This document shows, piece after piece, positions 36,189 to 53,643 of a stretch of DNA of 64,000 nt. This stretch comes from Candidatus Omnitrophota bacterium (GTDB lineage: Bacteria > Omnitrophota > Gorgyraeia > 1-14-0-20-64-10). The stretch spans positions 7,910-71,909 of the forward strand of contig JACOVG010000011.1 of assembly GCA_016177405.1 (NCBI GenBank), read 5' to 3'. The position numbers and the translations under genes were made by a program. The stretch's first letter is position 1. Every line of letters starts with the position of its first letter. The notes below the pieces were generated by a model. That model was not told the origin of the DNA. It did no database searches and saw only the letters and a program-made list of their open reading frames with translations.

Positions 36189-36191
36189 CGG

Positions 36192-36917: not shown

Positions 36918-36928
36918 CCCGCCACCTC

Positions 36929-37976: not shown

Positions 37977-38000
37977 TGGGAAAAGGCGCTCTAAAGCGTC

Positions 38001-39812: not shown

Positions 39813-39819
39813 TTCAATT

Positions 39820-40164
39820 TCAATAGGTCACCGCTCCCTCTTTCTTGAGGCGCCTGGCCTCCTCCGGAGGGAGCTTGAAGGGCGCGGGATCTTGAGCGGC
39901 CCAGCCAGGTACTTCGTTTTTCTTCTCATCGGAAGCTGTTGTCTTGGCGGGCTGAACCTTGCCGCCCTCGGGCGCGAGCACCCGTCCAAGCTCCTCCGGC
40001 TCCGGTAAAGGCAGGAGGGTTTCTTCGCCCTTGAGCGAAAACCCGGAAGGGGGCTGACTCGGGTTGTGCCTCGGCGAAGCCCCCCCGAGGCCCCAGCGGA
40101 TCATGAAAAATAAGACGAGAACGCCCAGGATCAGACCCACCTGCCACTTGAACCGTCCGCTCAT
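39820..40164 (-). CDS. small membrane-anchored Pro/Glu-rich protein (hypothetical)
   Basis: Single N-terminal TM (WQVGLILGVLVLFFMI). Confidence 0.35.
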   Translation of the reverse strand: MSGRFKWQVGLILGVLVLFFMIRWGLGGASPRHNPSQPPSGFSLKGEETLLPLPEPEELGRVLAPEGGKVQPAKTTASDEKKNEVPGWAAQDPAPFKLPPEEARRLKKEGAVTY

Positions 40165-40179
40165 GATTCCTCCCGCTGA

Positions 40180-41469: not shown

Positions 41470-41481
41470 TCGACACCTCCC

Positions 41482-41775
41482 TTAAGGATTGGGGTTAAGC
41501 TCATAGCGTTGGTCAAAGTTCGGGACCGTGATGAACTCGCTCAACTGCGCGTAGCTGGCCGGAAACCGCCCGTACACCAGCCGGTAGGCCTGCACCGCCT
41601 GATAGATCGAGCCAAGCTCCTTCTCCATCCGGGCATCCTCGGCGTTGTTCCGGTACCGGGCGACGCCGAAGACCGCCGCGGCTGCCACAAGGCTCACGAT
41701 GCCGCCGGTGATCGCCAGCTCGACCAGCGTGTACCCGCGCTTATTTTTTCGACTCTTGGACCACCACATCGCCAT
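41482..41775 (-). CDS. small pilin-like protein (prepilin-type N-terminus)
   Basis: KRGYTLVELAITGGIVSLVAAAAVFGV class III signal-peptide-like N-terminus. 97 aa. The 5' end overlaps the S8 gene by about 35 nt, so the start is uncertain. Confidence 0.5.
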   Translation of the reverse strand: MAMWWSKSRKNKRGYTLVELAITGGIVSLVAAAAVFGVARYRNNAEDARMEKELGSIYQAVQAYRLVYGRFPASYAQLSEFITVPNFDQRYELNPNP

Positions 41776-43075
41776 GGGGGCTCAACACATAAGTCCCCTT
41801 GTGCCCCTTTCCCCGGGCAAGCCACGGGGTCTGGGGAATCGGTTGAGGCGGCGCCACGACCGGCGGAGCCGGTCTGGGCGGCGCGGCCTGCCACGGGAAC
41901 CGGAAGGTCCCGTCGCGGATCTCCCGCATCCACCGCCCGACGTCCAGGGCGTTCAGGAATCCGGCCCCCAGTTTGCCGTTGTACTTGGAATTGTTCTTTC
42001 CCTCCAGGCTCTTGGCTTGGGTCTTGAGGACCGTCTCCACTTGAGAGCCCGTGAGAAACGGAAAGGCCGACTTGAGCATCGCCACCATCCCGGTGATGAA
42101 GGGAGACGAGAAGGAAGTTCCCGCCGCCATCCGGGTTCCGCCCCCGTGGGTCAACAGCTTCTGGGTTTGTCCCGGCGCGGAGATGTCAACGGTGCTGTTG
42201 TAGGTGGAGAAGCTGGCCTTTTGGCCGCTCTCGTTGGTGGCCGCCACCGAGATGACCCCCCGGTAGGCCGCCGGATAAAATTGCTGATCCGCGCCCGTGT
42301 TGCCGGCCGCCGCCACCACGATCACCCCTTTCTCGTTGGCCCGGTCGATGGAGCGCTGGAGCGCCTCGGAGTAGCCGCTGCCGCCCAGGCTCAAGTTGAT
42401 GACCGTGGCGCCGTTGTCGGTGGCGTAGTTGACCGCGTTGATCACGTTGGCCCAGCTCCCCGACCCGCCGGCCGAGAGGGCCGTCACCGGCATGATCTGG
42501 ACATTGGCATCCCCCGCCCCGTCCAGAACCCGCCCCGAGACGGCGGTCCCGTGCCAGTCCACGCCCGAGCCGGTGCTCTGGGTGTTGGTGGAGTTGCTGG
42601 TGAAGTTGTAGCCCGGAACGATCTTCCCGGACAGGGCCGGGTGGCTGGCGTCGATGGCCGTGTCAATCACCGCCACCTTGACCGGCGCCCCCGCTCCCAG
42701 CGTGGATTTCGCCGGTTCGGCGTAAGCCTCCGCCGGAAAGACCCAGTCCAGGAAGAGACCCTGGACGATCCCGTTGGGCTCGGCAAAGTCAACCTCGGGG
42801 AGCTTCTTAAACCGGGCCAGCATCCTTTCCACCGGGGTCTTCTCCGGAAAGCTCACGAGGTAGAGCGCCTCCGGTCCGATCCTCTGCTTCAGAGAAGCGC
42901 CGGCCTCCTGGATCAGCCGCTTGGCCGTGGGCTCTGTAACATCCGCCTTGAACTGAACGAGGAGCTCGCCCGGCACAAAAGCCGCCGTTTCCTTCTTTTC
43001 CCGGATGGCGTTAAACCCCAGAGCCATCCCTGTTCCCAGCAAGAGCAAGATTGCCAACAGCCACAGCTTGTTCAT
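41741..43075 (-). CDS. secreted subtilisin-like serine peptidase (S8) with N-terminal I9-like propeptide
   Basis: Signal peptide. Catalytic triad contexts VAVIDTAID (Asp), HGTAVSG (His), GTSFSSPFITG (Ser). Embedded between minor-pilin genes. Confidence 0.8.
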   Translation of the reverse strand: MNKLWLLAILLLLGTGMALGFNAIREKKETAAFVPGELLVQFKADVTEPTAKRLIQEAGASLKQRIGPEALYLVSFPEKTPVERMLARFKKLPEVDFAEPNGIVQGLFLDWVFPAEAYAEPAKSTLGAGAPVKVAVIDTAIDASHPALSGKIVPGYNFTSNSTNTQSTGSGVDWHGTAVSGRVLDGAGDANVQIMPVTALSAGGSGSWANVINAVNYATDNGATVINLSLGGSGYSEALQRSIDRANEKGVIVVAAAGNTGADQQFYPAAYRGVISVAATNESGQKASFSTYNSTVDISAPGQTQKLLTHGGGTRMAAGTSFSSPFITGMVAMLKSAFPFLTGSQVETVLKTQAKSLEGKNNSKYNGKLGAGFLNALDVGRWMREIRDGTFRFPWQAAPPRPAPPVVAPPQPIPQTPWLARGKGHKGTYVLSPHGDVVVQESKK

Positions 43076-43091
43076 CGAAGACCTCCTTGTT

Positions 43092-43646
43092 TCAGTTCCT
43101 TAGTTTGACCCGGGTAGCCAAGGTCCGGGTCTGAAGCTGGCCGGTTTCGGTCAGGGTGGAGGCGGTCAAAGAGATCTCCACCACGTCCGGCAGACGCCGG
43201 CGAAACGACAAAGCGGTGATGTGATTGCCCAGGATCTCCGGCGGATTGGCCGGCCCCGGCCCCCGGGGCGCCACCAGGCGCTGACAGCTGTTCCTGGATC
43301 CGGCCTGATAGGTGATCGGCATGGACCATTCCGCGATGCTGCCGTTGGCGTCGATCACGGCGCCGTCGCCGTTTAAGTCCTCCGGAACCTGAAAAGAGAC
43401 CGTGGGGTAGCTTCGGCCGTCCACCGGGACCGACTGGATCCGGCCGGAGGCGCTTTCGGTCATCTCCCGCGCCATCCGGTCCAGGGCCCGCCGCAGCTCG
43501 GCGGTCAAGACGGCCTGGTTGGAGCCGCCCGAGAAGGTTCTCTCGGCCGACAAGAGGGCCGTCACAATGGCCGCGGCCACAACGCTGAAGACCGCCACCG
43601 CCACCAGCACCTCTGTCAGGGTCATGCCGCTTTTGTCCATGGTCAT
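43092..43646 (-). CDS. minor pilin / pseudopilin (PilW/GspJ-like)
   Basis: Prepilin N-terminus SGMTLTEVLVAVAVFSVVAAAIV. Confidence 0.6.
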   Translation of the reverse strand: MTMDKSGMTLTEVLVAVAVFSVVAAAIVTALLSAERTFSGGSNQAVLTAELRRALDRMAREMTESASGRIQSVPVDGRSYPTVSFQVPEDLNGDGAVIDANGSIAEWSMPITYQAGSRNSCQRLVAPRGPGPANPPEILGNHITALSFRRRLPDVVEISLTASTLTETGQLQTRTLATRVKLRN

Positions 43647-43649
43647 CGG

Positions 43650-44114
43650 TCACCTTTTGGTGATCAAGTTTGTGAATTGGGCCGAACGATTCCGGCCCTT
43701 CTCGGACCAAGAGACGGTCAGGCTCGCCTCCACCAGGTTCGGCGGATTGGTCCGATTGATCCGGGACCCCTGGTTGGTCTTGGCCACCCAGAATTCTTCG
43801 GTGATGGTCTCGTTGGAGAGGGTCGTCAACCCCTGCTGTCTGGCCCAGGTGCCCCATGGGGTGGCCGGGTTGGTCACCTGAAGCAGGTTGGTGGAAGACA
43901 GCCGCCGCATCTCCTCGAAAACGGTCCTGGCGTCGGAGGAAGCCACCGCCATGTTCCGGCTGGACTCCACCAGCACCAGCCCCGCCAGAAAGGCGCTCAA
44001 GAGGCCCACCAGCGCCACCGCCACAATGAGGGTGCTGACCACCACCTCCGATAAGGTGAAGCCTAAAATAGATGAACGGGCAGCAGCCCCTTTCACGGAC
44101 CACTGCCCGCTCAT
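43650..44114 (-). CDS. minor pilin / pseudopilin (PilV/GspI-like)
   Basis: Prepilin N-terminus LGFTLSEVVVSTLIVAVALVGLL. Confidence 0.6.
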   Translation of the reverse strand: MSGQWSVKGAAARSSILGFTLSEVVVSTLIVAVALVGLLSAFLAGLVLVESSRNMAVASSDARTVFEEMRRLSSTNLLQVTNPATPWGTWARQQGLTTLSNETITEEFWVAKTNQGSRINRTNPPNLVEASLTVSWSEKGRNRSAQFTNLITKR

Positions 44115-44147
44115 CGGTTTCCGGCCTCCCTTAAGATTCCCTTGGCC

Positions 44148-44603
44148 TTATTCCAAAGGCGTGCTCCCAGGACCCGCGGGACCCACGGGATTGACCCGGA
44201 TCACACCGGTCTGATCCACATAGAAGCCCCGTGTCCCTGTCGTCCTGAAGGCTGTCGGAACGGAACTCAAGGTAAACAAATCGTTGCTGACCCTAAAATA
44301 CGTGAACCGATATCCCTGCTTCAAGCCGCTGGCCAGCACCGGATCAATGTAAGGCGGGTTGGAACCCGCGGGCCCCAGCGTCAACAGCGCGACCGGATAG
44401 GCCGTGGGGGTCTGATTGGCCCGGAAGCTTTCCAGCGCCGTCGAGATGGTCCGCATGGCCGCGATGGCCGCGGTCTCGTTGGCGTTGTGGCGAGCCCGAA
44501 GCATGTTGGGGATCGCGATCGCCGCCAGAAGCGCGATGATCGCCACCACGATCATGATTTCTACGAGCGTGAAACCGCGATTGGAACGTCGAAAGTAACC
44601 CAT
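44148..44603 (-). CDS. type IV pilin / GspG-like major pseudopilin (paralog 3)
   Basis: RGFTLVEIMIVVAIIALLAAIAIPNMLRARHNANE is a GspG-type N-terminus. Strong SD sequence (AGGAGGT) precedes the ATG. Confidence 0.8.
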   Translation of the reverse strand: MGYFRRSNRGFTLVEIMIVVAIIALLAAIAIPNMLRARHNANETAAIAAMRTISTALESFRANQTPTAYPVALLTLGPAGSNPPYIDPVLASGLKQGYRFTYFRVSNDLFTLSSVPTAFRTTGTRGFYVDQTGVIRVNPVGPAGPGSTPLE

Positions 44604-44743
44604 CTTGCCACCTCCTGTTATAAAGTATCAAATTATCTTTTACACAAAATACACAACCCATTTATTTATAATGCCTTACAACGTCTCTAAAACTAAGTTT
44701 ATACATAAAGTGTTAAGAAAACAAGGGGCCAAAGAATTAATTC
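44604..44743 (-). promoter_or_regulatory. AT-rich (about 30% GC) intergenic island: probable promoter/5' UTR region of pilin paralog 3
   Basis: A 140-nt stretch, sharply AT-rich in a genome of about 65% GC. It contains the RBS AGGAGG. A weak sigma54-like -24/-12 candidate (TGGCCCCTTGTTTTC) is not convincing. Confidence 0.45.
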
Positions 44744-45283
44744 TCACCGCTCTTCTCCGACGGGGGTATCCCCCGCCCCGGCGGGCCCCTGGGTGTTGAA
44801 CCGCACCACCCCGGTCTGGTCCACAAAGAAACTGCTCTGTCCGGTGACTCCCCGCCGGATGGGCTCGGCCGTAAGGAAATAGCCGGTGCCCACGGTGTAG
44901 GTGATGTTCCCCACCGTCTGGCTTTGCGAAGAGGCGCGGTAGTTGAACCGGTATCCCTTCCATTCGCCGAAGGGACGGGCCACCCCTCTGAACCGGCTGT
45001 CCAGATAGGCCGGCACCCCCCGGCGGACGACCGTCAGCTCCGTCAGCAAGGCCGGATAAACTCCCTTCAGGTTCCCCCGGGATTCCCGAACCCGGTAGCT
45101 CTCCAGGGCCTGGACAACCGACCGGACCGCTTGAACGACCGCCGCTTCGTTGCCCACCATGTACATCTTCAGCAGGTGGGGCATGGCCATCGCCATCACC
45201 ACCAGGATTACGCCAATGGACACCGCGATCTCCACCAGCGTGAAGCCCTTCCGGTTTCTCCCGAATTTCCTTTTAGTCCACAT
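44744..45283 (-). CDS. type IV pilin-like protein (paralog 2, divergent)
   Basis: KGFTLVEIAVSIGVILVVMAMAMPHL prepilin N-terminus. 179 aa. Confidence 0.7.
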   Translation of the reverse strand: MWTKRKFGRNRKGFTLVEIAVSIGVILVVMAMAMPHLLKMYMVGNEAAVVQAVRSVVQALESYRVRESRGNLKGVYPALLTELTVVRRGVPAYLDSRFRGVARPFGEWKGYRFNYRASSQSQTVGNITYTVGTGYFLTAEPIRRGVTGQSSFFVDQTGVVRFNTQGPAGAGDTPVGEER

Positions 45284-45300
45284 GGGCGCTCACCTTCCTT

Positions 45301-45759
45301 TCACTCCAGGGCCGGAGAAGAGGCGTCGGCCCGGGCCCGGGTGGTGCTGACCCGAATGACGCCGGTCTCATCCACAAAGAAACTGCGCGATCCGGTCACC
45401 CCAAAAGCCGTCGGCTGAACAAAGAGGAAGAACCGGTCCCTGGAAACCACGTTGTACTGGAACCGGTATCCCTGCTTCACCCCTCCGGCCAGGACCGGAT
45501 CGATGTAGGGCGGATCGGAAAGGGCCGGGCCCAGTTGCGCCAGCCCGCGGGGAAAACCCGGAGGGGTCTGGTTGGTCCGGTAAGCCTCCAGGGCCGTCGA
45601 GAGGGTCCGAAGGGACTGGAGGGCGGCCGACTCGTTGGCGTTGTGCCGGGAGCGAAGGATGTTGGGGATCGCGATGGCCGACAGCAGGGCGATGATGGTC
45701 ACCACGATCATCACTTCCACCAGCGTGAAGCCCCTTGTCCTCATGGCGCGCCTCCTCAT
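45301..45759 (-). CDS. type IV pilin / GspG-like major pseudopilin (paralog 1)
   Basis: RGFTLVEVMIVVTIIALLSAIAIPNILRSRHNANE. About 70% identical to paralog 3 along its length. Confidence 0.8.
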   Translation of the reverse strand: MRRRAMRTRGFTLVEVMIVVTIIALLSAIAIPNILRSRHNANESAALQSLRTLSTALEAYRTNQTPPGFPRGLAQLGPALSDPPYIDPVLAGGVKQGYRFQYNVVSRDRFFLFVQPTAFGVTGSRSFFVDETGVIRVSTTRARADASSPALE

Positions 45760-45784: not shown

Positions 45785-46981
45785 TCATCGGGCCAGCGTC
45801 TGCGTTAACTTGAAGATGGGCAGGAAGATCGAGAGAACGATCGAGCCCACCACGACCCCCAGGACCGCGATGATGATCGGCTCCAGGGCGCTCGTTAAAC
45901 CGCTCACCGCGGCGTCGACCTGATCGTCATAGAAATCGGCCACCTTGACCAGCATCTCATCCAGCCTCCCGGTCTGCTCCCCCACGCCGATCATCCGGAC
46001 CACCATGGGAGGGAAGACGCCCGAGGCCGCCAGGGGGCCGGCGATGTTCTCCCCTTCCCGGATCGAGTTCCGGACCTCCAGGATCGCCTTGGCGACGACG
46101 CTGTTGCCGGCGGACTCCGCCACAATGTCCAGGGCCCCGAGGATCTGGACGCCGGATTTCACGAGGGTCGCCAGGGTCCTGGCGAATTTGGCAATCGCCA
46201 CCTTCCGGACAATGTTGCCAACAATCATCAGCTTGAGCATCGTCCCGTCGAACCAGAGCCTGCCGCGGGGGGTCTCCAGGGCGCGCCGGGCCCAGAAGAA
46301 GGCCCCCGTGCCAAAGACCAGGCCCGGAAAGAATCCCTTTTGGGCGAAGCCGCTGACCGCGATCAGGATCTTGGTGGGCAGGGGAAGGTCGGCCCCCAGC
46401 TGAACAAAGATCTCCTTGAAGGCCGGGATCACCTTGAGGATCAAGACCGCCGTGATGATCATCGCCATGCTGATGACGATGGCCGGATACACGCAGGCCG
46501 ATTTGACCTTGCGCTGCAGGGCGGCGCTCTTTTCCAGGTACGTGGCCAAGCGGTCCAAGACCTCCGCCAGGTGGCCGCTCGCCTCGCCGGCCTTGACCAT
46601 GCTGACAAACAGGGGCGAGAAGATGGTCTTCTGCTTGGCGATGGCCGCCGTGAAGTTGGTTCCCCCCTCGACCGCCTCCTTGACCCTCGCCACCACCTCG
46701 CGAAGCCTTTTGTTCTCCAGCTGATCGGCCACCGCCTCCAGGCCCCCCACCAGCGGGATCCCCGCGTCCACCAGGGTCGCCATCTGGCGGGAGAAGATCG
46801 CCAGGTCTTCCATCCCCACCCTTCCACCCTTGGCCCCGCTCCCCCTCTGGGATTTCACCGAGATGACGATCAGCCCCTTGCGGTGGAGGGCCTCCAGCAC
46901 CACCTGCTGGGTGGCCACCTCCAGGGTGCCGGTCACGGTCCTTCCATCCTGCATCTTGGCCACATAAGAGAAGCTCGGCAT
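45785..46981 (-). CDS. pilC: type IV pilus / T2SS inner-membrane platform protein (PilC/GspF)
   Basis: Two GspF repeats, each with a cytoplasmic domain followed by TM helices. Confidence 0.85.
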   Translation of the reverse strand: MPSFSYVAKMQDGRTVTGTLEVATQQVVLEALHRKGLIVISVKSQRGSGAKGGRVGMEDLAIFSRQMATLVDAGIPLVGGLEAVADQLENKRLREVVARVKEAVEGGTNFTAAIAKQKTIFSPLFVSMVKAGEASGHLAEVLDRLATYLEKSAALQRKVKSACVYPAIVISMAMIITAVLILKVIPAFKEIFVQLGADLPLPTKILIAVSGFAQKGFFPGLVFGTGAFFWARRALETPRGRLWFDGTMLKLMIVGNIVRKVAIAKFARTLATLVKSGVQILGALDIVAESAGNSVVAKAILEVRNSIREGENIAGPLAASGVFPPMVVRMIGVGEQTGRLDEMLVKVADFYDDQVDAAVSGLTSALEPIIIAVLGVVVGSIVLSIFLPIFKLTQTLAR

Positions 46982-46983: not shown

Positions 46984-48687
46984 CTATTCCTCGCTGGTCA
47001 CCCGGACGATCTCGTCCAAAGAGGTGCGGCCGGCCAAAAGGTGCTCTATCCCCTCCTGCCGCAGACTCTTCATGCCGTGGCCGGCGGCATAGGTTCTGAT
47101 CTCATCCGGCGGCCTCTTGGCGATGATCATCTCGCGGATCTTGTCCTCCACCAGCATCGCCTCCAGGATCGCGAAGCGGCCCCGATAGCCGGTCTTCCGG
47201 CAGTAGGGACAGCCCTTCCCGGTGAAGATCTGCGCCCCCTTGGGAAGGATGAGCCCCCATTCTTTCAAGCGCGCGGGGTCCGGAGTCTCCGGGACCTTGC
47301 AGCGGGGGCAAAGCTGCCGGCAGAGGCGCTGGGCCGCCACAAAGATGAGGCTCGAGGCCAGCAGGAAGGGGTCCACCCCCATGTCCACCAGCCGCGTGAT
47401 GGAGCTGGGGGCGTCGTTGGTGTGCAGGGTGGACAGAACGATCTGCCCGGTGAGCGACGCCTTGATCGCGATGTCGGCCGTTTCCCCGTCGCGGATCTCC
47501 CCCACCAGCACCACATCGGGCGCCTGGCGCAGGAAGGCCCTCAAGGCCGAGGCGAAGGTGAGCTGGATCTCCGGATTCACCTGAACCTGGGTGATCCCCT
47601 CCACCTGATACTCCACGGGGTCTTCCACCGTCAGGATGTTCCGGCCGGGGTCGTTGAGCTGATTGAGGACCGAATAGAGGGTGGTGGACTTGCCGCTTCC
47701 GGTGGGCCCGGTCACAAGGATCAATCCGTAGGGCCTGCCGGTGGCCTTCTTGAAGGCCGCCAGCGAGCTGGGCAGGAAGCCCAGCTGATCCAGACTCACC
47801 GAAAGGTTGCTCTTATCCAGCGCCCGCATCACCATCTTGTTGCCGAAGGAGATCGGCAGGGCCGACACGCGGAAATCGACCTCCTTGCCCTCCATCCGAA
47901 CCTTGAAGCGGCCGTCCTGGGGAAGGCGGTTCTCGGTGATGTCCAGCCCCGACATGATCTTGAGCCTCGTGACAAAGGCATTCTGATGCCGCTTGGCCAG
48001 CTGAAAGGCTTCCACCAAGGCTCCGTCGATCCGATAGCGAACCCGGACGGCATCCTCGTAAGGCTCGACATGGATGTCGCTGGCGCGCCCCTTCAAGGCA
48101 TCCGAGATCATCAGGTCCACCACCTTGACGATGGACGTCCTTTTAAGCGACATCCCGAAGGCGGTCAGGTCCACCACCTCCTCTTCCTTGGAGGCCTGCT
48201 CGGCGGCCGCTTCGGGAACGGACTCCAGAAAGGCCTCGATCTGCTCCACCGGACGCTGGTAGAGGCGGACGATCGCCTGGTCGATGTCGGCGCCGGAGGC
48301 GATCACCGGAGAAATCTCGTAGGCCGTCAGCATGGTCAGGTCGTCCAGGGCCAGAACATTCAGGGGATCCTCCATCGCCACCGACAGGCGCTTGCCGAGC
48401 CGGGAAACCGGGACCAGCCGGTATTGCCGGGCGATCCGTTCGGGAACCACCTCGGCCAAACCGGCGTCGATCGTGTAGCGGGAAAGATTGATCGGGGGCA
48501 GCCCCAGCCCCCGGGAAAGGGTGGCCAGCAGCTCCTGCTGGGTGACCACCTTCTCCTCCACCAGGACGGCGCCGAAGCTCTTGCCCCGGCTCCTGGCCAG
48601 CTCCAGCAGGCCGGCGATCTTGGAGCGGTCGATTCCCTTCTCCGCCGCCAGCAGGTCCACCACCTTTTGTCTCAACGATTCGGCCAT
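46984..48687 (-). CDS. pilB: PilB/GspE-family secretion ATPase (paralog 1)
   Basis: GspE N1 domain, Walker A GPTGSGKST, Asp/His boxes, tetracysteine CRQLCPRC...CPYC. ATG at 48687; the ORF-track N-terminus is an over-extension. Confidence 0.85.
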   Translation of the reverse strand: MAESLRQKVVDLLAAEKGIDRSKIAGLLELARSRGKSFGAVLVEEKVVTQQELLATLSRGLGLPPINLSRYTIDAGLAEVVPERIARQYRLVPVSRLGKRLSVAMEDPLNVLALDDLTMLTAYEISPVIASGADIDQAIVRLYQRPVEQIEAFLESVPEAAAEQASKEEEVVDLTAFGMSLKRTSIVKVVDLMISDALKGRASDIHVEPYEDAVRVRYRIDGALVEAFQLAKRHQNAFVTRLKIMSGLDITENRLPQDGRFKVRMEGKEVDFRVSALPISFGNKMVMRALDKSNLSVSLDQLGFLPSSLAAFKKATGRPYGLILVTGPTGSGKSTTLYSVLNQLNDPGRNILTVEDPVEYQVEGITQVQVNPEIQLTFASALRAFLRQAPDVVLVGEIRDGETADIAIKASLTGQIVLSTLHTNDAPSSITRLVDMGVDPFLLASSLIFVAAQRLCRQLCPRCKVPETPDPARLKEWGLILPKGAQIFTGKGCPYCRKTGYRGRFAILEAMLVEDKIREMIIAKRPPDEIRTYAAGHGMKSLRQEGIEHLLAGRTSLDEIVRVTSEE

Positions 48688-48692: not shown

Positions 48693-50456
48693 TTACTCCT
48701 GATAGCCCACCGTGGTTCTCGCCACCTCTTCGAGCGGAATGAGCCCCAGGGCCGCCTTGGCGACGGCGTGGTCCCTCAAGGATGGAAAGCCGGCCGCCCG
48801 GGCCATCTCCCGAAGCTCCATGGAGGAGGCCCCCGCCGCCACCTTCCGCCTCAACTCCGCGGTCAGAGGAACCGCTTCCAGGAGTCCTACCCGGCCCGCC
48901 AGGCCGGTCCCCCGGCAATCGTTGCAGCCCTTGCCGCTCGCGTAACGGCCCTCCGGCGGCAAACCATAGAGCTCGATCAACTCCTTGGGGGGCTGGTAGG
49001 GTTTCTTGCAGCGCGGGCAGATCCGCCGGGGGAGCCGCTGGGCCCCGACCAGCAGGACGCAGGAAGCGATGAGGTACGGCTCGATCCCCATGTTCACGAG
49101 CCGCGCCACCGCCCCGATGGCGTCGTTGGTGTGCAGGGTGGACAAGACGAGGTGTCCGGTCAAGGCGGCCTTGACGGCGATGTCGGCCGTCTCCCCGTCG
49201 CGGATCTCCCCCACCATGATGACGTTGGGATCCTGCCTCAAGATGGAACGCAAGGCCGCCGCGAAGGTGAGGCCGATGTCGGGTCGGATGGCGACCTGGT
49301 TGACGCCGGCCAAATCGAACTCCACCGGATCCTCCACGGTCACGAGGTTTCTCTCTGGGCGGTCCACCACCTTGAGCAGGGAGTACATGGTGGTGGTCTT
49401 GCCCGAGCCCGTGGGCCCCGTGATGAGCACCATCCCGTGGGGGTGAGCCACCGCCTTCTTCAAACCCGAGAGGGGCTCCGGCTCGAAGCCCAGGCGGTCG
49501 ATCTCCAGCACCACCTGGCTCTTGTCCAGGATTCTCATGCAGGCCTTCTCCCCGTAATAGGAAGGGATCACCGACACGCGGAAATCCACCTCATGGCCGG
49601 CCGCCGAAAATTTGATCCGGCCGTCCTGGGGCAGCCGGTGCTCGGCGATGTTGAGGTTGGACATGACCTTGATCCTGGAGACGATCCCGGTGTGCATGGC
49701 CGCCGGCAAGGGCTCTCCCTCTCGGAAGACCCCGTCCACGCGGAACCGGACCCGAAGCTTTTTCTCAAAGGGCTCCACCAGGATGTCGCTCGCCTTGAGG
49801 TTCACCCCCTGGGTCAGGATGGCGTTGGTCACCTTCACCACCGGGACCTCCTCGGTCAGCCGGACCAGATCCTCCACCTTCTGCTGGATCTGGCCGCGCC
49901 CTTCCGACAAGATTTCGATCCGGGCCCCGCCCTGCGCTTGGCCCCTCAATTCCTCCAGGGTGTCGGTGATCGCCCCGCCATAGAGGCGCCGCAGGGCCTC
50001 CTGAATCTCCTCCGCCGTGGTGATGAAGGGGCTTAAGGTGAGGCCCGTGGTCTGGGAAAGATGATCCAGCGCCAAAACATTCAAGGGATCGGCCATCGCC
50101 ACGGTGAGCTGGTTGGCCAGCCGGGAGACCGGAACGATCTGATAATGAAAGGCGAGCTTGCGGGAAATCAGCTTGGCCATCTGCGGATCCAGCTCCATCT
50201 TGGAAAGGCTGATGGAGGGAATGGAGAGGACTTGGCTCAAGGCGGAGGCCAGGGCCCGGGATTCGACCAGCCCCAAACGGGAGAGGACCTGCCCCAGCGA
50301 CCCGCCCTCCTTCTGCTGGATCTCCAGGGCCTTGTCCAGATCTTCCCGCTTCATGAGCTTCTGGGCGATGAGGGCCTCGATGACCCTGTCCTTCACTCCC
50401 TTGGGCTTGTTGGCCGCGGTCCTGTCGGGACTCTTATCCGCCATCGGACGCTCCAT
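48693..50456 (-). CDS. PilB/GspE-family secretion ATPase (paralog 2)
   Basis: GspE N1 domain, Walker A GPTGSGKTT, tetracysteine CPRCKK...CNDCRGTG. Start ATG at 50456 or 50445. Confidence 0.85.
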   Translation of the reverse strand: MERPMADKSPDRTAANKPKGVKDRVIEALIAQKLMKREDLDKALEIQQKEGGSLGQVLSRLGLVESRALASALSQVLSIPSISLSKMELDPQMAKLISRKLAFHYQIVPVSRLANQLTVAMADPLNVLALDHLSQTTGLTLSPFITTAEEIQEALRRLYGGAITDTLEELRGQAQGGARIEILSEGRGQIQQKVEDLVRLTEEVPVVKVTNAILTQGVNLKASDILVEPFEKKLRVRFRVDGVFREGEPLPAAMHTGIVSRIKVMSNLNIAEHRLPQDGRIKFSAAGHEVDFRVSVIPSYYGEKACMRILDKSQVVLEIDRLGFEPEPLSGLKKAVAHPHGMVLITGPTGSGKTTTMYSLLKVVDRPERNLVTVEDPVEFDLAGVNQVAIRPDIGLTFAAALRSILRQDPNVIMVGEIRDGETADIAVKAALTGHLVLSTLHTNDAIGAVARLVNMGIEPYLIASCVLLVGAQRLPRRICPRCKKPYQPPKELIELYGLPPEGRYASGKGCNDCRGTGLAGRVGLLEAVPLTAELRRKVAAGASSMELREMARAAGFPSLRDHAVAKAALGLIPLEEVARTTVGYQE

Positions 50457-50892
50457 AGTGGCGCTGGATGGCCTCGGCCACATCGCTTAGGGTGGAAACA
50501 AAGACCTGCACCGAGCAGCGGCTCAACATCTCGATGTCCTCCACCGCGTGGGAGTTCAAGGGGTCGGCCATGGCCACCGTCAAGGTGTCGCCGATCCGGT
50601 CCACCGGCACCAGGCAGTACTGGCGGGCCACGTTCTCGGGGATCAGGCGCACCAGCTCCGTCTCAATCGAGTAGTGCTTCAGGGGAAGAAACGGAAAGCC
50701 GTACTGGCTGGTCAGGGCCTGGGCCACCGCCTCCTCCGAGGCGAAGCCCAGCGTCACCAGGATCTGGCCCAGCAGCCCTCCCTTGTCCTGCTGGACCTGG
50801 AGCGCCTGGGTGAGCTGTTCGGGCGTGATCACCTTGCGCTCCACCAGGAGCTCTCCCAGCTGCTTGGCAATCACCCGGCGTGGCGGCGTCAT
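50434..50892 (-). CDS. standalone GspE-N-terminal (MshEN-like) domain protein
   Basis: 152 aa, with no ATPase domain. Two MshEN-type repeats (QLGELLVERKVITPEQLTQALQVQQ and LLGQILVTLGFASEEAVAQALTSQ) plus a T2SSE_N core (ARQYCLVPVDRIGDTLTVAMADPLN). Confidence 0.7.
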   Translation of the reverse strand: MTPPRRVIAKQLGELLVERKVITPEQLTQALQVQQDKGGLLGQILVTLGFASEEAVAQALTSQYGFPFLPLKHYSIETELVRLIPENVARQYCLVPVDRIGDTLTVAMADPLNSHAVEDIEMLSRCSVQVFVSTLSDVAEAIQRHYGASDGG

Positions 50893-50910
50893 CTAAAGCT
50901 CCCTGAACCC

Positions 50911-51987
50911 CTAGCGTTGAATCAACCGAAGAAGCTCTTCCGTATCCGTGGTTCTGGCCAGAGCCTCCTCATAGGCGATCTGTTTGTTCAGATACAGCTC
51001 CGCCAGCGACTGGTTCATGGTCCGCATCCCATCCCGCTGGCTCGTCTGAATCACCGAGTAAAGCTGATGCCCCTTCCCCTCCCGGACCAAGGCCCGGACG
51101 GCCGGCGTGGCCACGAGAAGCTCCAGGGCCAGGATCCGCCCCGTATTGGCGGCCTTGGGAATCAGCTGCTGTGAGAGGACCGCCAGCAGGACGAAGGAAA
51201 GCTGAATCCTCACCTGCTGCTGCTGGTGAGAGGGAAAGACGTCCACCACCCGGTTCACCGTCTGGACGGCGTCGGAGGTGTGCAGGGTGGCCAGCACCAG
51301 GTGGCCCGTCTCCGCGATGTTGAGGGCCGCTTCGATCGTCTCCAGGTCCCGCATCTCCCCGATCAGGATCACGTTCGGATCCTGCCGGAGGATGTGCTTC
51401 AGCGCCGCCTTGAAGGTGAGGGAATCGGCCCCAATCTCCCGCTGATCCACGATGGCCTGCTGGTTCTGGTAGACGTACTCGATGGGGTCCTCGATCGTCA
51501 CCACGTGGCACTTGCGATTCAGATTGATCCACTGCACCATGGAGGCCAGGGTAGTGGACTTGCCGCTTCCGGTGGCCCCGGTGATCAGGATCAAACCCTT
51601 CTGTTTCCGGCAGAGCTCTTCCATGAGCTTGACCGGCAGCCCGCAGTCCTCGAAGGTCCGCAGCTCGAAAGGCAGCGCCCGGATCGCCGCTCCGATGGAT
51701 CCCCTCTGAAGAAAGACGTTCACCCTGAACCGGGCCACCCCCTCGACCCCGAACGACATGTCCAGCTCCTTCTCCTTCTCGAAGGCCGCTATCTGCTCCG
51801 GATTGAGCAGGCTGTAGATCAGCTCCCGGGCCGCCTCGGCCCTCAAGGGGGGCTGTTCGGTGGGAAGGAGATCCTCATCGATCCGCAGCACGGGCGGGGA
51901 GCCCACCGTCAGGTGCAGGTCGGAAGCCCGCTTGGCCACCATCAACTTCAAGAGATCCTGAATCAAGCCGTTGTCTTTGTTGGACAT
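50911..51987 (-). CDS. pilT: twitching-motility retraction ATPase PilT
   Basis: Walker A GATGSGKST. PilT-specific AIRNLIRE-like region. 358 aa. Confidence 0.9.
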   Translation of the reverse strand: MSNKDNGLIQDLLKLMVAKRASDLHLTVGSPPVLRIDEDLLPTEQPPLRAEAARELIYSLLNPEQIAAFEKEKELDMSFGVEGVARFRVNVFLQRGSIGAAIRALPFELRTFEDCGLPVKLMEELCRKQKGLILITGATGSGKSTTLASMVQWINLNRKCHVVTIEDPIEYVYQNQQAIVDQREIGADSLTFKAALKHILRQDPNVILIGEMRDLETIEAALNIAETGHLVLATLHTSDAVQTVNRVVDVFPSHQQQQVRIQLSFVLLAVLSQQLIPKAANTGRILALELLVATPAVRALVREGKGHQLYSVIQTSQRDGMRTMNQSLAELYLNKQIAYEEALARTTDTEELLRLIQR

Positions 51988-51997
51988 GGCATCCTCC

Positions 51998-53380
51998 CTA
52001 AGCCACCACCCGGTTCTTGCCCTGCAGCTTCGCCGCCTTCATAGAGGAAAGGGCCTTGGCGAAAAGCTCCTCGCCGGTGGCCCCATCGATGGGGTTTTCG
52101 CTCACTCCCCCCGAGACCGTGATGGAACAGGGCAAGGGCTTCGGGCCGTTCTTGAAGGCGGTCTCGCCGATCTGGCGGCGGATCGCCTCGGCCAGCTCAA
52201 TCGCCTCCCGCTTGTTCCGCTCGGGCAGCACCAGGGCGAACTCATCCGCCGAGGTCCTGCCGATCCGGTCCACCTCGCTCGCCTTCGCCTTCAGGATCTC
52301 CGAAACCTGACGCAGCGTCCCCTCGGCCGCCAATCCCCCGTAGAGATCGGTGAACTGCCGGAAATTGTCCAGGTTGATCACCACCAGCGAGCAGGGCCGG
52401 TGGTAGCGGATCGCCCGGCGGACCTCCTCATCCAGGCGGCTACTCATGTACGAGGCGTTGTACAAACCGGTCAGCTCGTCGATCACCTTCAGCTCCTCGG
52501 CCCGCTTGGCCAGCAGATCGTTCTCGATGGCGATCGCCATCTGCTTGGCGAAGACCTTGTAGAGATCGATCGCGTCCTCGGTGTAGGTGAAGTCGGGTTT
52601 CCGGTTGGCGCAGATCAGGATCCCTATCCCCTGCCCGATCGACACGAGCGGCTGGCAAACGGCGTTCGACATCCCAAAAAGCTCCTGAAGGAGCTCCCCG
52701 GAATGGCCCTTCGCCGCCTCGCCGTCTATGACGAGAACCTGGTTCTCTTTTAACATCTTGGCCAGCCACGGAGCCGTGAGCCTCGTCTTCAGAAGGGTCT
52801 GGACCTGTTCGGGATAAACCCCCATCGCCGAACGGATCACGAAGGTGTTGGCCTCCGGGGCGGGCTCGAGCAGGCAGTTGAGCTCCGCCTCCTCCAGCTG
52901 GGAGAGCTTCTCCAGGATGAAGCGGATCACCTCCTCCACCTTGGCCGACTGGGTGATGAGATTGCTCACCTGAAGCAGGTGAGAGAAGGTCAGGATTCTC
53001 CGGTTGATCTCGAGGTTAAGGTGTTTGGTCTGCTCCCCGTAGACCCTCAATTGGGACATGTTCTCCCGGACCTTGGAGGTGATCTGGTTGAGCGCCAGGC
53101 CCAGGGTGCCTATCTCGTCCGGAGCCCTCACCTCCACCTGCCGCTCCAAGTGCCCCTCGGCGATCGCCTGGGCCTCGGAGGCCAGCTTCACCACGGGCAA
53201 AACCAGATTCCGGGCCACGAGGAATCCCAAGAAGGCGATCGTGATGGCCAGAACCACGATGATCGACAGGTCCCACACCGATTCGAGGTTAGGAAAGACA
53301 TAGTTCGTCAAGATGTATCCCAAGACCAGCAGGGGCACGACGGACATCAGGGAAAAGGCCACAATCAGCTTCTCCCGCAT
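51998..53380 (-). CDS. membrane HAMP-(GAF-like)-GGDEF-domain protein with degenerate active-site motif (SADEF)
   Basis: Two TM helices, a HAMP-like segment, and a C-terminal GGDEF fold (DELTGLYN...INLDNFRQFTDLYG). The signature reads RIGRTSADEF rather than RxGG(D/E)EF. Start placed at MREKLIVAFSLMS. Confidence 0.7.
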   Translation of the reverse strand: MREKLIVAFSLMSVVPLLVLGYILTNYVFPNLESVWDLSIIVVLAITIAFLGFLVARNLVLPVVKLASEAQAIAEGHLERQVEVRAPDEIGTLGLALNQITSKVRENMSQLRVYGEQTKHLNLEINRRILTFSHLLQVSNLITQSAKVEEVIRFILEKLSQLEEAELNCLLEPAPEANTFVIRSAMGVYPEQVQTLLKTRLTAPWLAKMLKENQVLVIDGEAAKGHSGELLQELFGMSNAVCQPLVSIGQGIGILICANRKPDFTYTEDAIDLYKVFAKQMAIAIENDLLAKRAEELKVIDELTGLYNASYMSSRLDEEVRRAIRYHRPCSLVVINLDNFRQFTDLYGGLAAEGTLRQVSEILKAKASEVDRIGRTSADEFALVLPERNKREAIELAEAIRRQIGETAFKNGPKPLPCSITVSGGVSENPIDGATGEELFAKALSSMKAAKLQGKNRVVA

Positions 53381-53436
53381 CCCCTTGGGCAGCAACGACC
53401 GCGGGGAGGCGGAAGCGATGGGCGCCAAACGGCTGG

Positions 53437-53643
53437 TCAGCTCCGCCTTTGGTACTGTTCTCTCATCCATCGGTCTATCTCCTCTTTTTGGAATCTCCAC
53501 TGCCGGCCGATCCGGGTCGCGGGCATGGAGCGCTCCTTGGCCAGGCGGTAAACGGTGAAGCGGCTCACCTGCATGTAGGCCGCCACCTCCTCAATCGTCA
53601 TCAACCGATTCATCTCGTTCATCATTTGTCCCACCACTGCCAA
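53437..53643 (-). CDS. excisionase/MerR-type HTH DNA-binding protein
   Basis: MTIEEVAAYMQVSRFTVYRLAKERSMPATRIGRQWRFQKEEIDRWM. 68 aa or shorter depending on the start. Confidence 0.6.
   Translation of the reverse strand: MAVVGQMMNEMNRLMTIEEVAAYMQVSRFTVYRLAKERSMPATRIGRQWRFQKEEIDRWMREQYQRRS

What the first reader, a model, noticed from the sequence alone, without database searches (positions are those of the whole stretch)
50434..53380. Standalone MshEN-like (GspE N-terminal) domain protein next to a degenerate GGDEF membrane protein and PilT: candidate c-di-GMP input to pilus dynamics
ORF 50434-50892 is a 152-aa protein consisting only of a GspE N-terminal domain. It carries two 24-residue repeats matching the MshEN c-di-GMP-binding pattern (LGxxLVxxxxIxxxxLxxALxxQ), but with no ATPase domain. 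It sits between pilT and two full-length PilB/GspE ATPases. Immediately upstream is a HAMP-GGDEF membrane protein whose active-site signature is SADEF instead of GG(D/E)EF, so it is likely catalytically inactive and may act as a sensor or receptor. The arrangement HTH regulator, degenerate GGDEF, PilT, free MshEN domain, then two PilB looks like a self-contained second-messenger control module for extension and retraction.
Basis: partly seen in the sequence, partly recalled or inferred. Interest (0 to 1): 0.6.

Follow-up and report, generated by a model that had tools for sequence, protein, structure and literature searches.

The report
Free-standing c-di-GMP sensor in pilus operon
A small, strongly conserved protein in the type IV pilus operon of Omnitrophota bacteria consists only of the c-di-GMP-binding domain normally fused to pilus motor ATPases; it keeps every key ligand contact while the two neighbouring motors have lost theirs, so it probably senses the messenger on their behalf.

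Summary
ORF 50434-50892 (minus strand) encodes a 152-aa protein that is one complete MshEN/GSPII domain with no ATPase. It carries two 24-residue motifs separated by a 5-residue spacer. The gene order is HTH, HAMP-GAF-GGDEF(SADEF), PilT, MshEN, PilB, PilB, PilC.

The gene is not a fragment. It occurs in at least 585 species-level genomes, nearly all Candidatus Omnitrophota, always 144-167 aa, with dN/dS of about 0.15-0.3. A PilB follows it in 80/80 loci. In 82/82 orthologues the free protein keeps Gly at motif position 3 and Gln at position 24 in both motifs. The adjacent PilB paralogues never keep Gly at position 3 of motif I (0/79 and 0/72) and mostly lack Gln at position 24 of motif II.

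The upstream GGDEF protein is a pseudo-cyclase across the phylum: the GG pair is intact in 4/69, the guanine-binding Asn is never present, and there is no RxxD I-site. It is therefore neither the source nor a canonical receptor of c-di-GMP. Canonical REC-GGDEF cyclases exist elsewhere in Omnitrophota genomes.

Best reading: a trans-acting c-di-GMP sensor for the pilus motors. Ligand binding and protein partners are untested. This is a new variant of a known kind, of moderate interest.

The parts
50434..50892 (-). Stand-alone MshEN/GSPII protein of 152 aa. It has an N-terminal four-helix c-di-GMP-binding subdomain and a C-terminal alpha/beta subdomain, and no ATPase.
   Evidence: Pfam PF05157 83.2 bits. 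NCBIfam NF053729 65.3 bits against cut-off 38. Full-length alignment to solved MshEN domains. More than 646 homologues, all about 150 aa. At least 585 species genomes. dN/dS 0.15-0.3. Foldseek top 19 hits are all MshEN/GSPII structures.
50791..50862 (-). Motif I of the free MshEN protein, residues 11-34: QLGELLVERKVITPEQLTQALQVQ.
   Evidence: Translation checked. L12, G13, L27, L31 and Q34 occupy the contact positions 2, 3, 17, 21 and 24. G13 and Q34 are invariant in 82/82 orthologues. Position 1 is Gln here, and Q58/K8/H6/R5/T4/L1 across the family. Position 10 is Lys here and Gly in 50/82.
50704..50775 (-). Motif II of the free MshEN protein, residues 40-63: LLGQILVTLGFASEEAVAQALTSQ. The 5-residue spacer QDKGG (50776-50790) precedes it.
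   Evidence: G42 and Q63 are invariant in 82/82. Position 1 is Leu in 79/82, as in the 6 nM binder Thermus PilF GSPII-B (PMC11731258).
51998..53500 (-). Membrane-anchored HAMP-GAF-GGDEF pseudo-cyclase. It has two TM helices around residues 43-66 and 72-100 with a very short loop, HAMP at 53078-53221, GAF at 52523-52942, the GGDEF domain at 52010-52483 and SADEF at 52238-52252. Alternative starts are 53470 and 53380.
   Evidence: Pfam. PleD alignment gives GG->SA, R359->S, N335->T, D344->E. Orthologue census. Hydropathy and coordinates. Found upstream of the MshEN gene in 63/69 loci.
50911..51987 (-). PilT/PilU-family retraction ATPase of 358 aa, with Walker A GATGSGKST.
   Evidence: NCBIfam TIGR01420 468.7 bits against cut-off 319. 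Pfam T2SSE. Present at this position in 34/69 loci.
48693..50444 (-). PilB paralogue 1 (583 aa). It is a full-length assembly ATPase whose own MshEN motifs are degenerate: motif I RVIEALIAQKLMKREDLDKALEIQ (50316-50387) and motif II SLGQVLSRLGLVESRALASALSQV (50229-50300). Its start overlaps the MshEN stop by 11 nt.
   Evidence: Walker A/B and the four-Cys motif are intact. Orthologue census: Gly at I-3 in 0/79, Gln at II-24 in 0/79, Gly at II-3 in 9/79. It is the next gene after MshEN in 80/80 loci.
46984..48687 (-). PilB paralogue 2 (567 aa), 43% identical to paralogue 1. Its motifs are degenerate: motif I KVVDLLAAEKGIDRSKIAGLLELA (48595-48666) and motif II SFGAVLVEEKVVTQQELLATLSRG (48508-48579).
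   Evidence: Census: Gly at I-3 in 0/72, Gln at II-24 in 24/72. No NF053729 hit for the window protein. Present in 73/74 loci.
45785..46981 (-). PilC platform protein (T2SSF), the last constant member of the conserved block MshEN-PilB-PilB-PilC.
   Evidence: Pfam T2SSF 213.7 bits. Present in 68/69 loci.
53437..53643 (-). Small HTH_17 / excisionase-family DNA-binding protein at the head of the operon. It is specific to the window's close clade and is not part of the conserved module.
   Evidence: Pfam HTH_17 64.2 bits. NCBIfam excisionase domain 68.1 bits. Abuts the GGDEF gene in only 6/64 loci.
33306..45759 (-). The rest of the type IVa pilus cluster downstream: four or five pilin-like genes (43092-45759), a subtilase S8 (41741-43075), a PilX/DUF4900 protein (40180-41469), PilM (36929-37936), PilO (35601-36188) and the secretin PilQ (33306-34925).

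Best explanation
The 152-aa gene encodes a genuine free-standing MshEN domain protein that is conserved across the phylum. It most likely binds one c-di-GMP molecule in its N-terminal four-helix bundle. It would then act in trans as the second-messenger sensor of the Omnitrophota type IVa pilus motor set.

The two assembly ATPases encoded directly downstream (PilB1, PilB2) keep the MshEN fold but have lost the residues that contact the ligand, so the sensing function appears to have been moved to a separate subunit. The sensor would act through its C-terminal subdomain, the part that in fused ATPases faces the PilM/PilN/PilC platform and the ATPase ring. Either it docks onto PilB1/PilB2 (its stop overlaps or abuts the PilB1 start in many genomes, which suggests co-translation), or it competes for the platform. 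In either case it would bias which motor engages, and so whether the pilus extends or retracts.

The co-conserved HAMP-GAF-GGDEF protein is a catalytically dead pseudo-cyclase without an I-site. It most likely serves as a membrane-anchored input or scaffold partner, with the signal entering through the GAF domain or the membrane, rather than as a maker or canonical receptor of c-di-GMP. The messenger itself is supplied by canonical REC-GGDEF cyclases encoded elsewhere in these genomes.

Shown: domain identity, motif conservation, synteny, degeneracy of the PilB and GGDEF sites, and the presence of cyclases in the phylum.

Inferred: ligand binding, the protein partners, and the direction of the effect.
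For: 1. It is a real gene.
- More than 646 homologues, all about 150 aa.
- At least 585 species genomes, including the complete genome of Ca. Velamenicoccus archaeovorus.
- ORF length 144-167 aa in 81 loci, never fused to an ATPase.
- dN/dS 0.15-0.3.

2. It looks competent to bind the ligand.
- The exact 24+5+24 layout is present.
- Gly at position 3 and Gln at position 24 of both motifs are invariant in 82/82; positions 2, 17 and 21 are hydrophobic in all.
- NF053729 matches in 82/82.
- Motif II starts with Leu in 79/82, as in Thermus PilF GSPII-B. That domain binds at 6 nM without any Arg, and a hydrophobic first residue was proposed there as a predictor of high affinity (PMC11731258).
- The N-terminus carries basic residues R5, R6 and an invariant K10, like the positive patch of MshE.
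- The AF2 model has helix 1 starting at residue 12, with no N-terminal extension.

3. The neighbouring PilB paralogues are degenerate at exactly the positions shown experimentally to matter.
- Gly at I-3: 0/79 and 0/72. Gln at II-24: 0/79 and 24/72. Ser is frequent at II-1.
- G->A costs 10-30-fold and Ser at II-1 abolishes binding (PMC12002112).
- Q->E costs about 80-fold and the double mutant abolishes binding.
- XpsE, with G11V/G40L/Q61V, does not bind.
- Because the paralogues keep the fold without these residues, their invariance in the free protein points to ligand binding rather than folding.

4. The operon linkage is strong.
- PilB1 follows in 80/80 loci, PilB2 in 73/74 and PilC in 68/69.
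- Junctions are tight or overlapping.
- The pseudo-GGDEF gene lies upstream in 63/69 loci.

5. A source of c-di-GMP exists.
- REC-GGDEF proteins with D/N/D, RxxD and GGEEF all intact are widespread in Omnitrophota.
- In V. archaeovorus one sits beside a second pilus/F-ATPase cluster.
- In L033 one abuts PilB2 of this very module.
Against: - No binding experiment exists for any member of this family.
- Motif I position 1 is Gln here and in 58/82 orthologues. That lies outside both the R/K/L consensus and Wang's relaxed [RKPN] set.
- Motif I position 10 is Lys rather than Gly/Ala/Ser. M. xanthus PilB, with Asn there, is nevertheless reported to bind.
- A perfect motif does not guarantee binding. 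Thermus GSPII-A with a restored consensus still failed to bind until inter-subdomain contacts and an N-cap were removed.
- The curated profile NF053729 does not separate the free domain from PilB1. 76/80 PilB1 N-termini and 40/73 PilB2 N-termini also reach E<=1e-9, roughly its cut-off. The 'degenerate ATPase' argument therefore rests on individual residues only.
- The structural model has modest confidence (pLDDT 63.7).
- No evidence of any kind bears on which protein the free domain touches.
Confidence: 0.5

Rival explanations
1. The free domain is a ligand-independent adaptor or decoy. Its N1-like C-terminal subdomain docks on the PilM/PilN/PilC platform or on a PilB ring. It helps assemble or select between the two PilB paralogues and PilT, and c-di-GMP plays no part.
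For: - In Thermus, PilF binds PilMN, and one GSPII domain is needed for stimulation of the ATPase (PMC6325625).
- GSPII domains that do not bind c-di-GMP exist, such as GSPII-A and XpsE.
- Motif I deviates at positions 1 and 10.
- The C-terminal subdomain is at least as conserved as the N-terminal one.
Against: The four polar or backbone contact positions (G13, Q34, G42, Q63) are invariant in 82/82. The paralogous PilB N-termini keep the same fold without them. That pattern is hard to explain except by ligand binding.
Confidence: 0.2
2. The gene is a fission product. An ancestral PilF-like ATPase with two GSPII domains split, and the free domain is still a permanent stoichiometric subunit of PilB1. 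The domain is split but the function is fused, so it is not a freely exchanging regulator.
For: - The gene always lies directly 5' of PilB1 (80/80).
- Overlapping or abutting stop and start codons are common: 11 nt here, and -3, -7 or 0 in many loci.
- Multi-GSPII ATPases exist (Thermus PilF), and many multi-repeat proteins appear among the representative hits.
Against: - No fused form was found in 81 loci or among the listed homologues.
- The free domain is closer to the Geobacter PilB N-terminus (43% identity) than to PilB1 or PilB2 (36% and 34%).
- Some loci have intergenic gaps of 60-290 nt.

This rival is a special case of the best explanation, not its opposite.
Confidence: 0.15
3. One reading: a self-contained c-di-GMP module in which the degenerate GGDEF protein is itself the receptor or sensor of c-di-GMP (or a residual cyclase) that feeds the free MshEN domain locally.
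For: - The GGDEF and MshEN genes are tightly co-conserved (63/69, directly adjacent in 32).
- Four of 69 orthologues still read GGDEF and four read SGDEF or AGDEF.
- Degenerate GGDEF receptors are known (PelD and others, cited).
Against: - The I-site Arg is present in only 5/69, and the sequence reads SEVD here.
- The guanine-binding Asn is never conserved, and Asp344 is Glu in 52/69.
- The GG pair is intact in 4/69, across 55 different pentapeptides.
- There is no cyclase or phosphodiesterase in the module or elsewhere in the window.
Confidence: 0.07
4. The ORF is an artefact or pseudogene: a truncated or frameshifted remnant of a duplicated pilB.
For: The ORF overlaps the longest possible PilB1 ORF by 50 nt and lies in a different frame.
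Against: - PilB1 has its own complete MshEN domain.
- The same 144-167-aa ORF is found in at least 585 species genomes.
- It has 22 invariant columns across 82 sequences.
- dN/dS is well below 1.
- Seven independent assemblies carry the identical protein.
Confidence: 0.01

Closest known systems
MshEN / GSPII c-di-GMP receptor domain of MshE-type ATPases (V. cholerae MshE, PDB 5HTL; Thermus PilF GSPII-B, PDB 8PDK; M. xanthus, Geobacter and Chloracidobacterium PilB)
   Same: - Same domain over its full length (E 2e-19 to 1e-28).
- Same layout of two 24-residue motifs and a 5-residue spacer.
- Same contact residues (L2, G3, L17, L21, Q24).
- Motif II begins with Leu, as in the high-affinity GSPII-B domain.
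- It sits in a type IV pilus operon.
   Different: - It is not fused to any ATPase. It is a separate 152-aa polypeptide encoded just upstream of two PilB genes whose own copies of the domain are degenerate.
- Motif I starts with Gln rather than R/K/L.
- No stand-alone MshEN protein was found to be characterised in the literature searched.
Xanthomonas / Pseudomonas FimX-PilZ-PilB system
   Same: The logic is the same. The PilB N-terminal domain does not bind c-di-GMP itself, and the messenger is sensed by separate proteins that dock on PilB. One of these carries degenerate GGDEF and EAL domains (PMC8389850, PMC10333796).
   Different: - The parts are unrelated. In that system the receptor is a degenerate EAL domain and the adaptor is a non-binding PilZ protein. 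Here the candidate receptor is a free MshEN domain.
- The degenerate GGDEF protein here has HAMP and GAF domains, is membrane-anchored and has no EAL domain.
- No PilZ or EAL gene was identified among the operon genes that were scanned.
Thermus thermophilus PilF (three tandem GSPII domains plus an ATPase)
   Same: Binding-competent and binding-incompetent GSPII domains are combined within one motor system, with specialised roles and contact to the PilMN platform.
   Different: In PilF all domains lie on one chain. Here the competent and incompetent copies lie on separate polypeptides.
Degenerate GGDEF pseudo-enzymes (for example PelD, FimX, GdpS, CdgA-type proteins)
   Same: The GGDEF fold is retained (103 bits) while the catalytic signature is lost, and the protein is linked to a surface-structure machine.
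   Different: It lacks the RxxD I-site that makes PelD-type proteins c-di-GMP receptors. It has family-specific conserved patches of unknown role (RPC at 368-370, ENPxDG at 468-473).
NfrB-type glycosyltransferases with a C-terminal MshEN domain
   Same: The MshEN domain serves as a c-di-GMP input to a non-ATPase or separately encoded output. The free protein scores 66 bits on the NfrB model over that region.
   Different: In NfrB the domain is fused to its output enzyme and is fed locally by a dedicated active cyclase. Here it is unfused and the adjacent GGDEF protein is inactive.

Membership tests
MshEN c-di-GMP receptor domain (PF05157 / NF053729) | Profile match above the curated cut-off | tested here: met
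   PF05157 scores 83.2 against 23.1 bits over residues 64-150. NF053729 scores 65.3 against 38 bits over residues 11-63, model positions 1-53 of 53. 82/82 orthologues match.
MshEN c-di-GMP receptor domain (PF05157 / NF053729) | Two 24-residue motifs joined by a 5-residue spacer (the 53-residue unit) | tested here: met
   Residues 11-34, QDKGG, residues 40-63. The spacing holds across 82 orthologues.
MshEN c-di-GMP receptor domain (PF05157 / NF053729) | Gly at position 3 and Gln at position 24 of both motifs (backbone and side-chain hydrogen bonds to the ligand) | tested here: met
   G13, Q34, G42 and Q63 are each invariant in 82/82.
MshEN c-di-GMP receptor domain (PF05157 / NF053729) | Hydrophobic residues at positions 2, 17 and 21 (the two leucine triangles that stack on the guanines) | tested here: met
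   L12, L27, L31 and L41, V56, L60. The family shows L/I/V throughout. Ile in place of Leu is tolerated experimentally.
MshEN c-di-GMP receptor domain (PF05157 / NF053729) | Position 1 of each motif is R, K or L (stacks on the guanine) | tested here: inconclusive
   Motif II has Leu, which meets the feature (79/82). Motif I has Gln here, and Q58/K8/H6/R5/T4/L1 across the family. Gln has not been tested in the literature read. Ser at the motif II position abolished binding in GSPII-A.
MshEN c-di-GMP receptor domain (PF05157 / NF053729) | Two-subdomain fold: a four-helix bundle plus an alpha/beta subdomain | tested here: met
   The AF2 model shows four helices at 12-64, then two short helices (78-91), a two-stranded hairpin (95-107) and two further helices. 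The Foldseek top 19 hits are all MshEN/GSPII structures with probability 1.0. Model confidence is only moderate (pLDDT 63.7), and TM is about 0.4 because of subdomain orientation.
MshEN c-di-GMP receptor domain (PF05157 / NF053729) | Measured specific binding of c-di-GMP | not testable with these tools
   This needs ITC, DRaCALA or NMR on purified protein.
Diguanylate cyclase (active GGDEF domain) | GG(D/E)EF active-site loop | tested here: not met
   SADEF aligns without gaps to PleD G368-F372. The GG pair is intact in only 4/69 orthologues.
Diguanylate cyclase (active GGDEF domain) | Guanine-binding Asn335 and Asp344 (PleD numbering) | tested here: not met
   Thr and Glu here. Asn appears in 0/69 and Asp in 5/69.
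I-site c-di-GMP receptor (degenerate GGDEF of PelD type) | RxxD motif five residues upstream of the signature | tested here: not met
   SEVD here. Arg is present in 5/69.
c-di-GMP-binding MshE-type ATPase (tested for the two neighbouring PilB proteins) | Gly at position 3 and Gln at position 24 in both motifs of the N-terminal domain | tested here: not met
   Window PilB1 has I-3 Ile, II-1 Ser and II-24 Val. Window PilB2 has I-3 Val, I-24 Ala, II-1 Ser and II-24 Gly. Across the phylum, Gly at I-3 is 0/79 and 0/72. Caveat: the profile NF053729 still matches most PilB1 N-termini.
PilT/PilU retraction ATPase | TIGR01420 above its cut-off; Walker A/B present; no N-terminal MshEN domain | tested here: met
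   468.7 against 319.1 bits. Motifs confirmed.

The most novel reading that the evidence does not exclude
Omnitrophota have split c-di-GMP sensing away from their pilus motors. A free, probably high-affinity MshEN protein would work with a membrane-anchored HAMP-GAF pseudo-cyclase as a two-part switch. That switch would decide which of two ligand-blind PilB paralogues, or PilT, occupies the pilus platform. This would be a mode of type IV pilus control without a described precedent, in a phylum of ultra-small, host-attached or predatory bacteria that depend on these pili.
Probability: 0.3. Interest if true: 0.7.

Novelty: new variant of a known kind. Interest (0 to 1): 0.45.

Why it matters
MshEN is one of only a few broadly distributed c-di-GMP receptor domains. 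Every characterised example is fused to its output, either an ATPase or a glycosyltransferase.

A free copy conserved across a whole phylum, next to motors that have lost their own binding residues, would show that the receptor can act as an exchangeable subunit. It would also give a simple system for asking what the MshEN domain does mechanically to a PilB hexamer or to the platform. That question remains open even for MshE and PilF.

Omnitrophota are uncultivated nanobacteria for which type IVa pili are thought to mediate attachment to hosts or prey. A regulatory handle on those pili is one of the few testable leads into their lifestyle, and the protein is small and easy to express.

The finding also flags a large family of GGDEF pseudo-enzymes that automated annotation calls 'diguanylate cyclase' although canonical criteria say they cannot be.

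Tried and rejected
1. Frameshift or fragment hypothesis: rejected by conservation and by PilB1 having its own MshEN domain.

2. Rescue of a GG pair by realignment with an indel: rejected. The PleD and GacA alignments are ungapped through the signature.

3. I-site receptor role for the GGDEF protein: rejected.

4. The curated NCBIfam motif model as a discriminator between the free domain and the PilB N-termini: tried, and it does not discriminate. 82/82 free domains, 76/80 PilB1 and 40/73 PilB2 reach E<=1e-9. The contrast therefore rests on key residues only.

5. The HTH gene as part of the module: rejected as clade-specific (6/64).

6. A second GGDEF, or any cyclase, in the window: none found. 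EAL, HD-GYP and PilZ domains were not searched for systematically.

7. Structure prediction: confidence was only moderate because the alignment was shallow and closely related. The fold search still returned only MshEN/GSPII structures, but the model is not good enough to judge pocket geometry.

8. Rfam scan of the window, to explain the low-GC stretch at 8-15.6 kb: no RNA family matched. The stretch is a giant repeat-protein gene.

9. Literature on stand-alone MshEN proteins or on c-di-GMP in Omnitrophota: nothing found. Proteome evidence for expression in V. archaeovorus could not be retrieved.

10. Uniqueness of the stand-alone architecture: rejected. Dozens of 145-180-aa MshEN-only clusters appear among the best 150 of 31,267 representative hits.

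Full report
**What is in the window**

All genes of interest lie on the minus strand and are tightly packed:

| Coordinates | Product |
|---|---|
| 53437-53643 | 68-aa HTH_17/excisionase-type protein |
| 51998-53500 | Two-TM HAMP-GAF-GGDEF protein (alternative starts 53470, 53380) |
| 50911-51987 | PilT-family ATPase |
| 50434-50892 | The 152-aa ORF |
| 48693-50444 | Full-length PilB-type ATPase, PilB1 |
| 46984-48687 | Full-length PilB-type ATPase, PilB2 |
| 45785-46981 | PilC |

The rest of a type IVa pilus cluster follows: pilins, a subtilase, a PilX-like protein, PilM, PilO and the secretin PilQ. The start of PilB1 overlaps the stop of the 152-aa ORF by 11 nt, in another frame.

The 152-aa protein is one complete MshEN/GSPII domain and nothing else.
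- Pfam PF05157 covers residues 64-150 at 83.2 bits.
- The 53-position NCBIfam model of the c-di-GMP-binding unit, NF053729, covers residues 11-63 end to end at 65.3 bits against a cut-off of 38.
- The protein aligns over its full length with the N-terminal domains of Geobacter and Myxococcus PilB, V. cholerae MshE (5HTL) and all three GSPII domains of Thermus PilF.
- An AlphaFold model is of moderate confidence only (pLDDT 63.7; the four-helix bundle scores 77-89). Even so, it retrieves only MshEN/GSPII structures as its top 19 Foldseek hits.

Read directly from the sequence, the protein has motif I QLGELLVERKVITPEQLTQALQVQ, the spacer QDKGG and motif II LLGQILVTLGFASEEAVAQALTSQ. This is the 24+5+24 layout defined for MshE (PMC5013675).

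**It is a real gene, and typical of Omnitrophota**

- The homology search returned more than 646 proteins. The best 120 are all 144-160 aa and 70-94% identical, and where they carry a name it is Candidatus Omnitrophica.
- The identical protein occurs on seven independently assembled contigs.
- A scan of one genome per species found at least 585 matching loci. Nearly all are Omnitrophota MAGs, and they include the complete genome of Ca. Velamenicoccus archaeovorus LiM.
- In 81 loci the ORF is 144-167 aa and never fused to an ATPase.
- dN/dS against relatives is about 0.15-0.3.
- Synteny is very strong: PilB1 is the next gene in 80/80 loci, PilB2 follows in 73/74 and PilC in 68/69.
- The HAMP-GAF-GGDEF gene lies upstream in 63/69 loci. 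It is directly adjacent in 32, and PilT lies between in 31.
- The HTH gene is confined to the window's close relatives (6/64).

**Residue-level test of the c-di-GMP motif**

Published structures and mutants define which positions matter.
- Leu at position 2, Gly at position 3, Leu at 17, Leu at 21 and Gln at 24 contact the ligand.
- XpsE, with G11V, G40L, Q61V and other changes, does not bind.
- In Thermus GSPII-B, Q190E weakens binding about 80-fold and the double Gln mutant abolishes it.
- In GSPII-A constructs, Gly to Ala at position 3 costs 10-30-fold, Ser at motif II position 1 abolishes binding, and Ile in place of Leu is tolerated.
- Position 1 need not be Arg. GSPII-B has Lys and Leu there and binds at 6 nM, and a hydrophobic first residue was proposed as a predictor of very high affinity.

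I aligned 82 free-domain orthologues with 79 PilB1 and 72 PilB2 N-termini. The number of orthologues that keep the key residue at each contact position is:

| Position | Free domain | PilB1 | PilB2 |
|---|---|---|---|
| Gly at I-3 | 82/82 | 0/79 | 0/72 |
| Gly at II-3 | 82/82 | 9/79 | 21/72 |
| Gln at I-24 | 82/82 | 74/79 | 48/72 |
| Gln at II-24 | 82/82 | 0/79 | 24/72 |

The free domain also has Leu at II-1 in 79/82. In both PilB paralogues Ser is the commonest or near-commonest residue at II-1.

In the window itself:
- PilB1 reads RVI...Q / SLG...V.
- PilB2 reads KVV...A / SFG...G.

Both ATPases keep Walker A/B and the four-Cys motif, so they look like working motors.

The paralogues keep the fold without these residues. 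Their absolute conservation in the free protein is therefore best explained by ligand binding.

**Caveats on the binding inference**

- Motif I position 1 is Gln here and in 58/82 orthologues. This lies outside the published R/K/L consensus and outside the relaxed [RKPN] pattern.
- Motif I position 10 is Lys.
- The GSPII-A work shows that even a perfect motif can be silenced by an N-capped longer helix 1 and by inter-subdomain contacts.
- The curated profile NF053729 does not separate the three groups. At E<=1e-9 it matches 82/82 free domains, but also 76/80 PilB1 and 40/73 PilB2 N-termini. The contrast is real at key residues but invisible to the profile.

**The GGDEF protein**

Its GGDEF domain is a clear Pfam match at 103 bits. 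An ungapped alignment to PleD gives G368G369 -> S-A, the guanine-binding N335 -> T, D344 -> E, and I-site R359 -> S (SEVD).

Across 69 orthologues:
- The signature takes 55 different forms.
- GG is intact in 4.
- Asn335 is never present.
- The I-site Arg is present in 5.
- R366, F372, an LPE motif, an RPC motif and an ENPxDG motif are conserved.

This is a pseudo-cyclase family under selection for something other than catalysis or I-site binding. It is the only GGDEF in the window.

**Where c-di-GMP could come from**

A REC-GGDEF family about 292-300 aa long, with D/N/D, RxxD and GGEEF all intact, is widespread in Omnitrophota and includes V. archaeovorus.
- In that genome the gene sits next to a second PilB-PilC-PilMN cluster and the 'symbiotic' F-type ATPase operon.
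- In locus L033 such a cyclase starts at the stop codon of PilB2 of this very module.

The messenger is therefore plausibly present, but it is made outside the module.

**Mechanism**

The best-supported reading has three parts.
- The free MshEN protein is a trans-acting c-di-GMP sensor for a motor set whose own sensor domains have decayed.
- The pseudo-cyclase is a membrane-anchored input or scaffold partner.
- c-di-GMP is supplied by separate cyclases.

How the signal reaches the motors is inferred, not shown. The C-terminal subdomain is the part that in fused ATPases relates to the PilMN platform. The frequent stop/start overlap with PilB1 suggests co-production.

The closest functional analogue is the Xanthomonas PilB-PilZ-FimX complex, where a ligand-blind PilB N-terminus is served by separate proteins. 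Its parts are unrelated to those seen here.

**Novelty**

- The domain is well known, and NCBI already has a naming model for 'MshE-related c-di-GMP-binding domain-containing proteins'.
- MshEN-only proteins of 145-180 aa are common among the 31,267 representative hits.
- I found no paper that characterises a stand-alone MshEN protein, or that discusses c-di-GMP, GGDEF or MshEN in Omnitrophota. The main phylum-wide study describes the pili but mentions none of these terms.
- The specific arrangement is an intact free receptor, two degenerate PilB paralogues and a conserved pseudo-GGDEF, found across the phylum. It is best described as a new variant of a known kind.

I score interest at 0.45. 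The system is clean, cheap to test, and bears on an open mechanistic question. It is not surprising in kind, and every functional step is still inference.

Noticed in passing
window 8607-15548 (-): A single 2313-aa ORF fills a stretch of lower G+C (0.56-0.58, against about 0.64 elsewhere). It contains many tandem copies of a unit about 35-40 aa long (ALAAIAEHQASAG(LDPGPT)FTEALAxARSI) and a recurring AAGLEE motif. Rfam finds no RNA family there. Omnitrophota are known for giant repeat proteins.
   Followed up: partly
window 48693-50444 and 46984-48687; loci L007-L090: Two PilB paralogues (43% identical, both with Walker A/B and the four-Cys zinc motif) sit in tandem in front of a single PilC in 73/74 Omnitrophota loci. 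Whether they form mixed hexamers or serve different pilus functions is unknown.
   Followed up: partly
window 41741-43075 (-): A subtilase (Peptidase_S8 with a fervidolysin-like prodomain) is embedded between the pilin genes and the PilX/DUF4900 minor-pilin-like gene of the pilus cluster.
   Followed up: no
window 53437-53643 (-): The small HTH protein at the head of the operon scores 71.1 bits on the NCBIfam anti-phage MADS1 HTH model (cut-off 80) as well as on the excisionase domain model. It is present only in the window's close clade, and its ORF overlaps the longest GGDEF ORF.
   Followed up: partly
L091 (Ca. Velamenicoccus archaeovorus CP019384.1, 1788499-1809377): A canonical REC-GGDEF cyclase lies immediately upstream of the non-respiratory F-type ATPase operon and a second PilB-PilC-PilMN cluster. 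A second REC-GGDEF, a FIST protein, a GAF histidine kinase and a PilT-like ATPase lie nearby. c-di-GMP genes therefore accompany pilus loci elsewhere in the phylum too.
   Followed up: partly
L033 10897-11790 (+): In this Omnitrophota MAG a canonical cyclase (RVVDMVFRYGGEEF) starts at the stop codon of PilB2, where PilC normally follows. Another large GGDEF protein comes after it.
   Followed up: no
P0222, P0224, P0220, P0234, P0240 (REC-GGDEF proteins): In several of these cyclases the receiver domain reads ...VVITELRLPDM... where a phospho-acceptor Asp would be expected. Others, such as P0122, have Asp. This was read by eye only and not checked by alignment.
   Followed up: no
Protein-representative hits P0241-P0246, P0266, P0298: The best-scoring relatives of the free domain include proteins of 1000-1345 aa that carry 4-7 MshEN-like stretches each. 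Their architecture and origin were not examined.
   Followed up: no
loci L017, L057, L066, L078, L083, L088: Six of 69 loci lack the pseudo-GGDEF gene upstream of the MshEN gene. In L078 and L083 the upstream ORFs have sizes like those of the MreB, PBP2 and RodA genes that precede the module in L007, but they were not annotated here.
   Followed up: no
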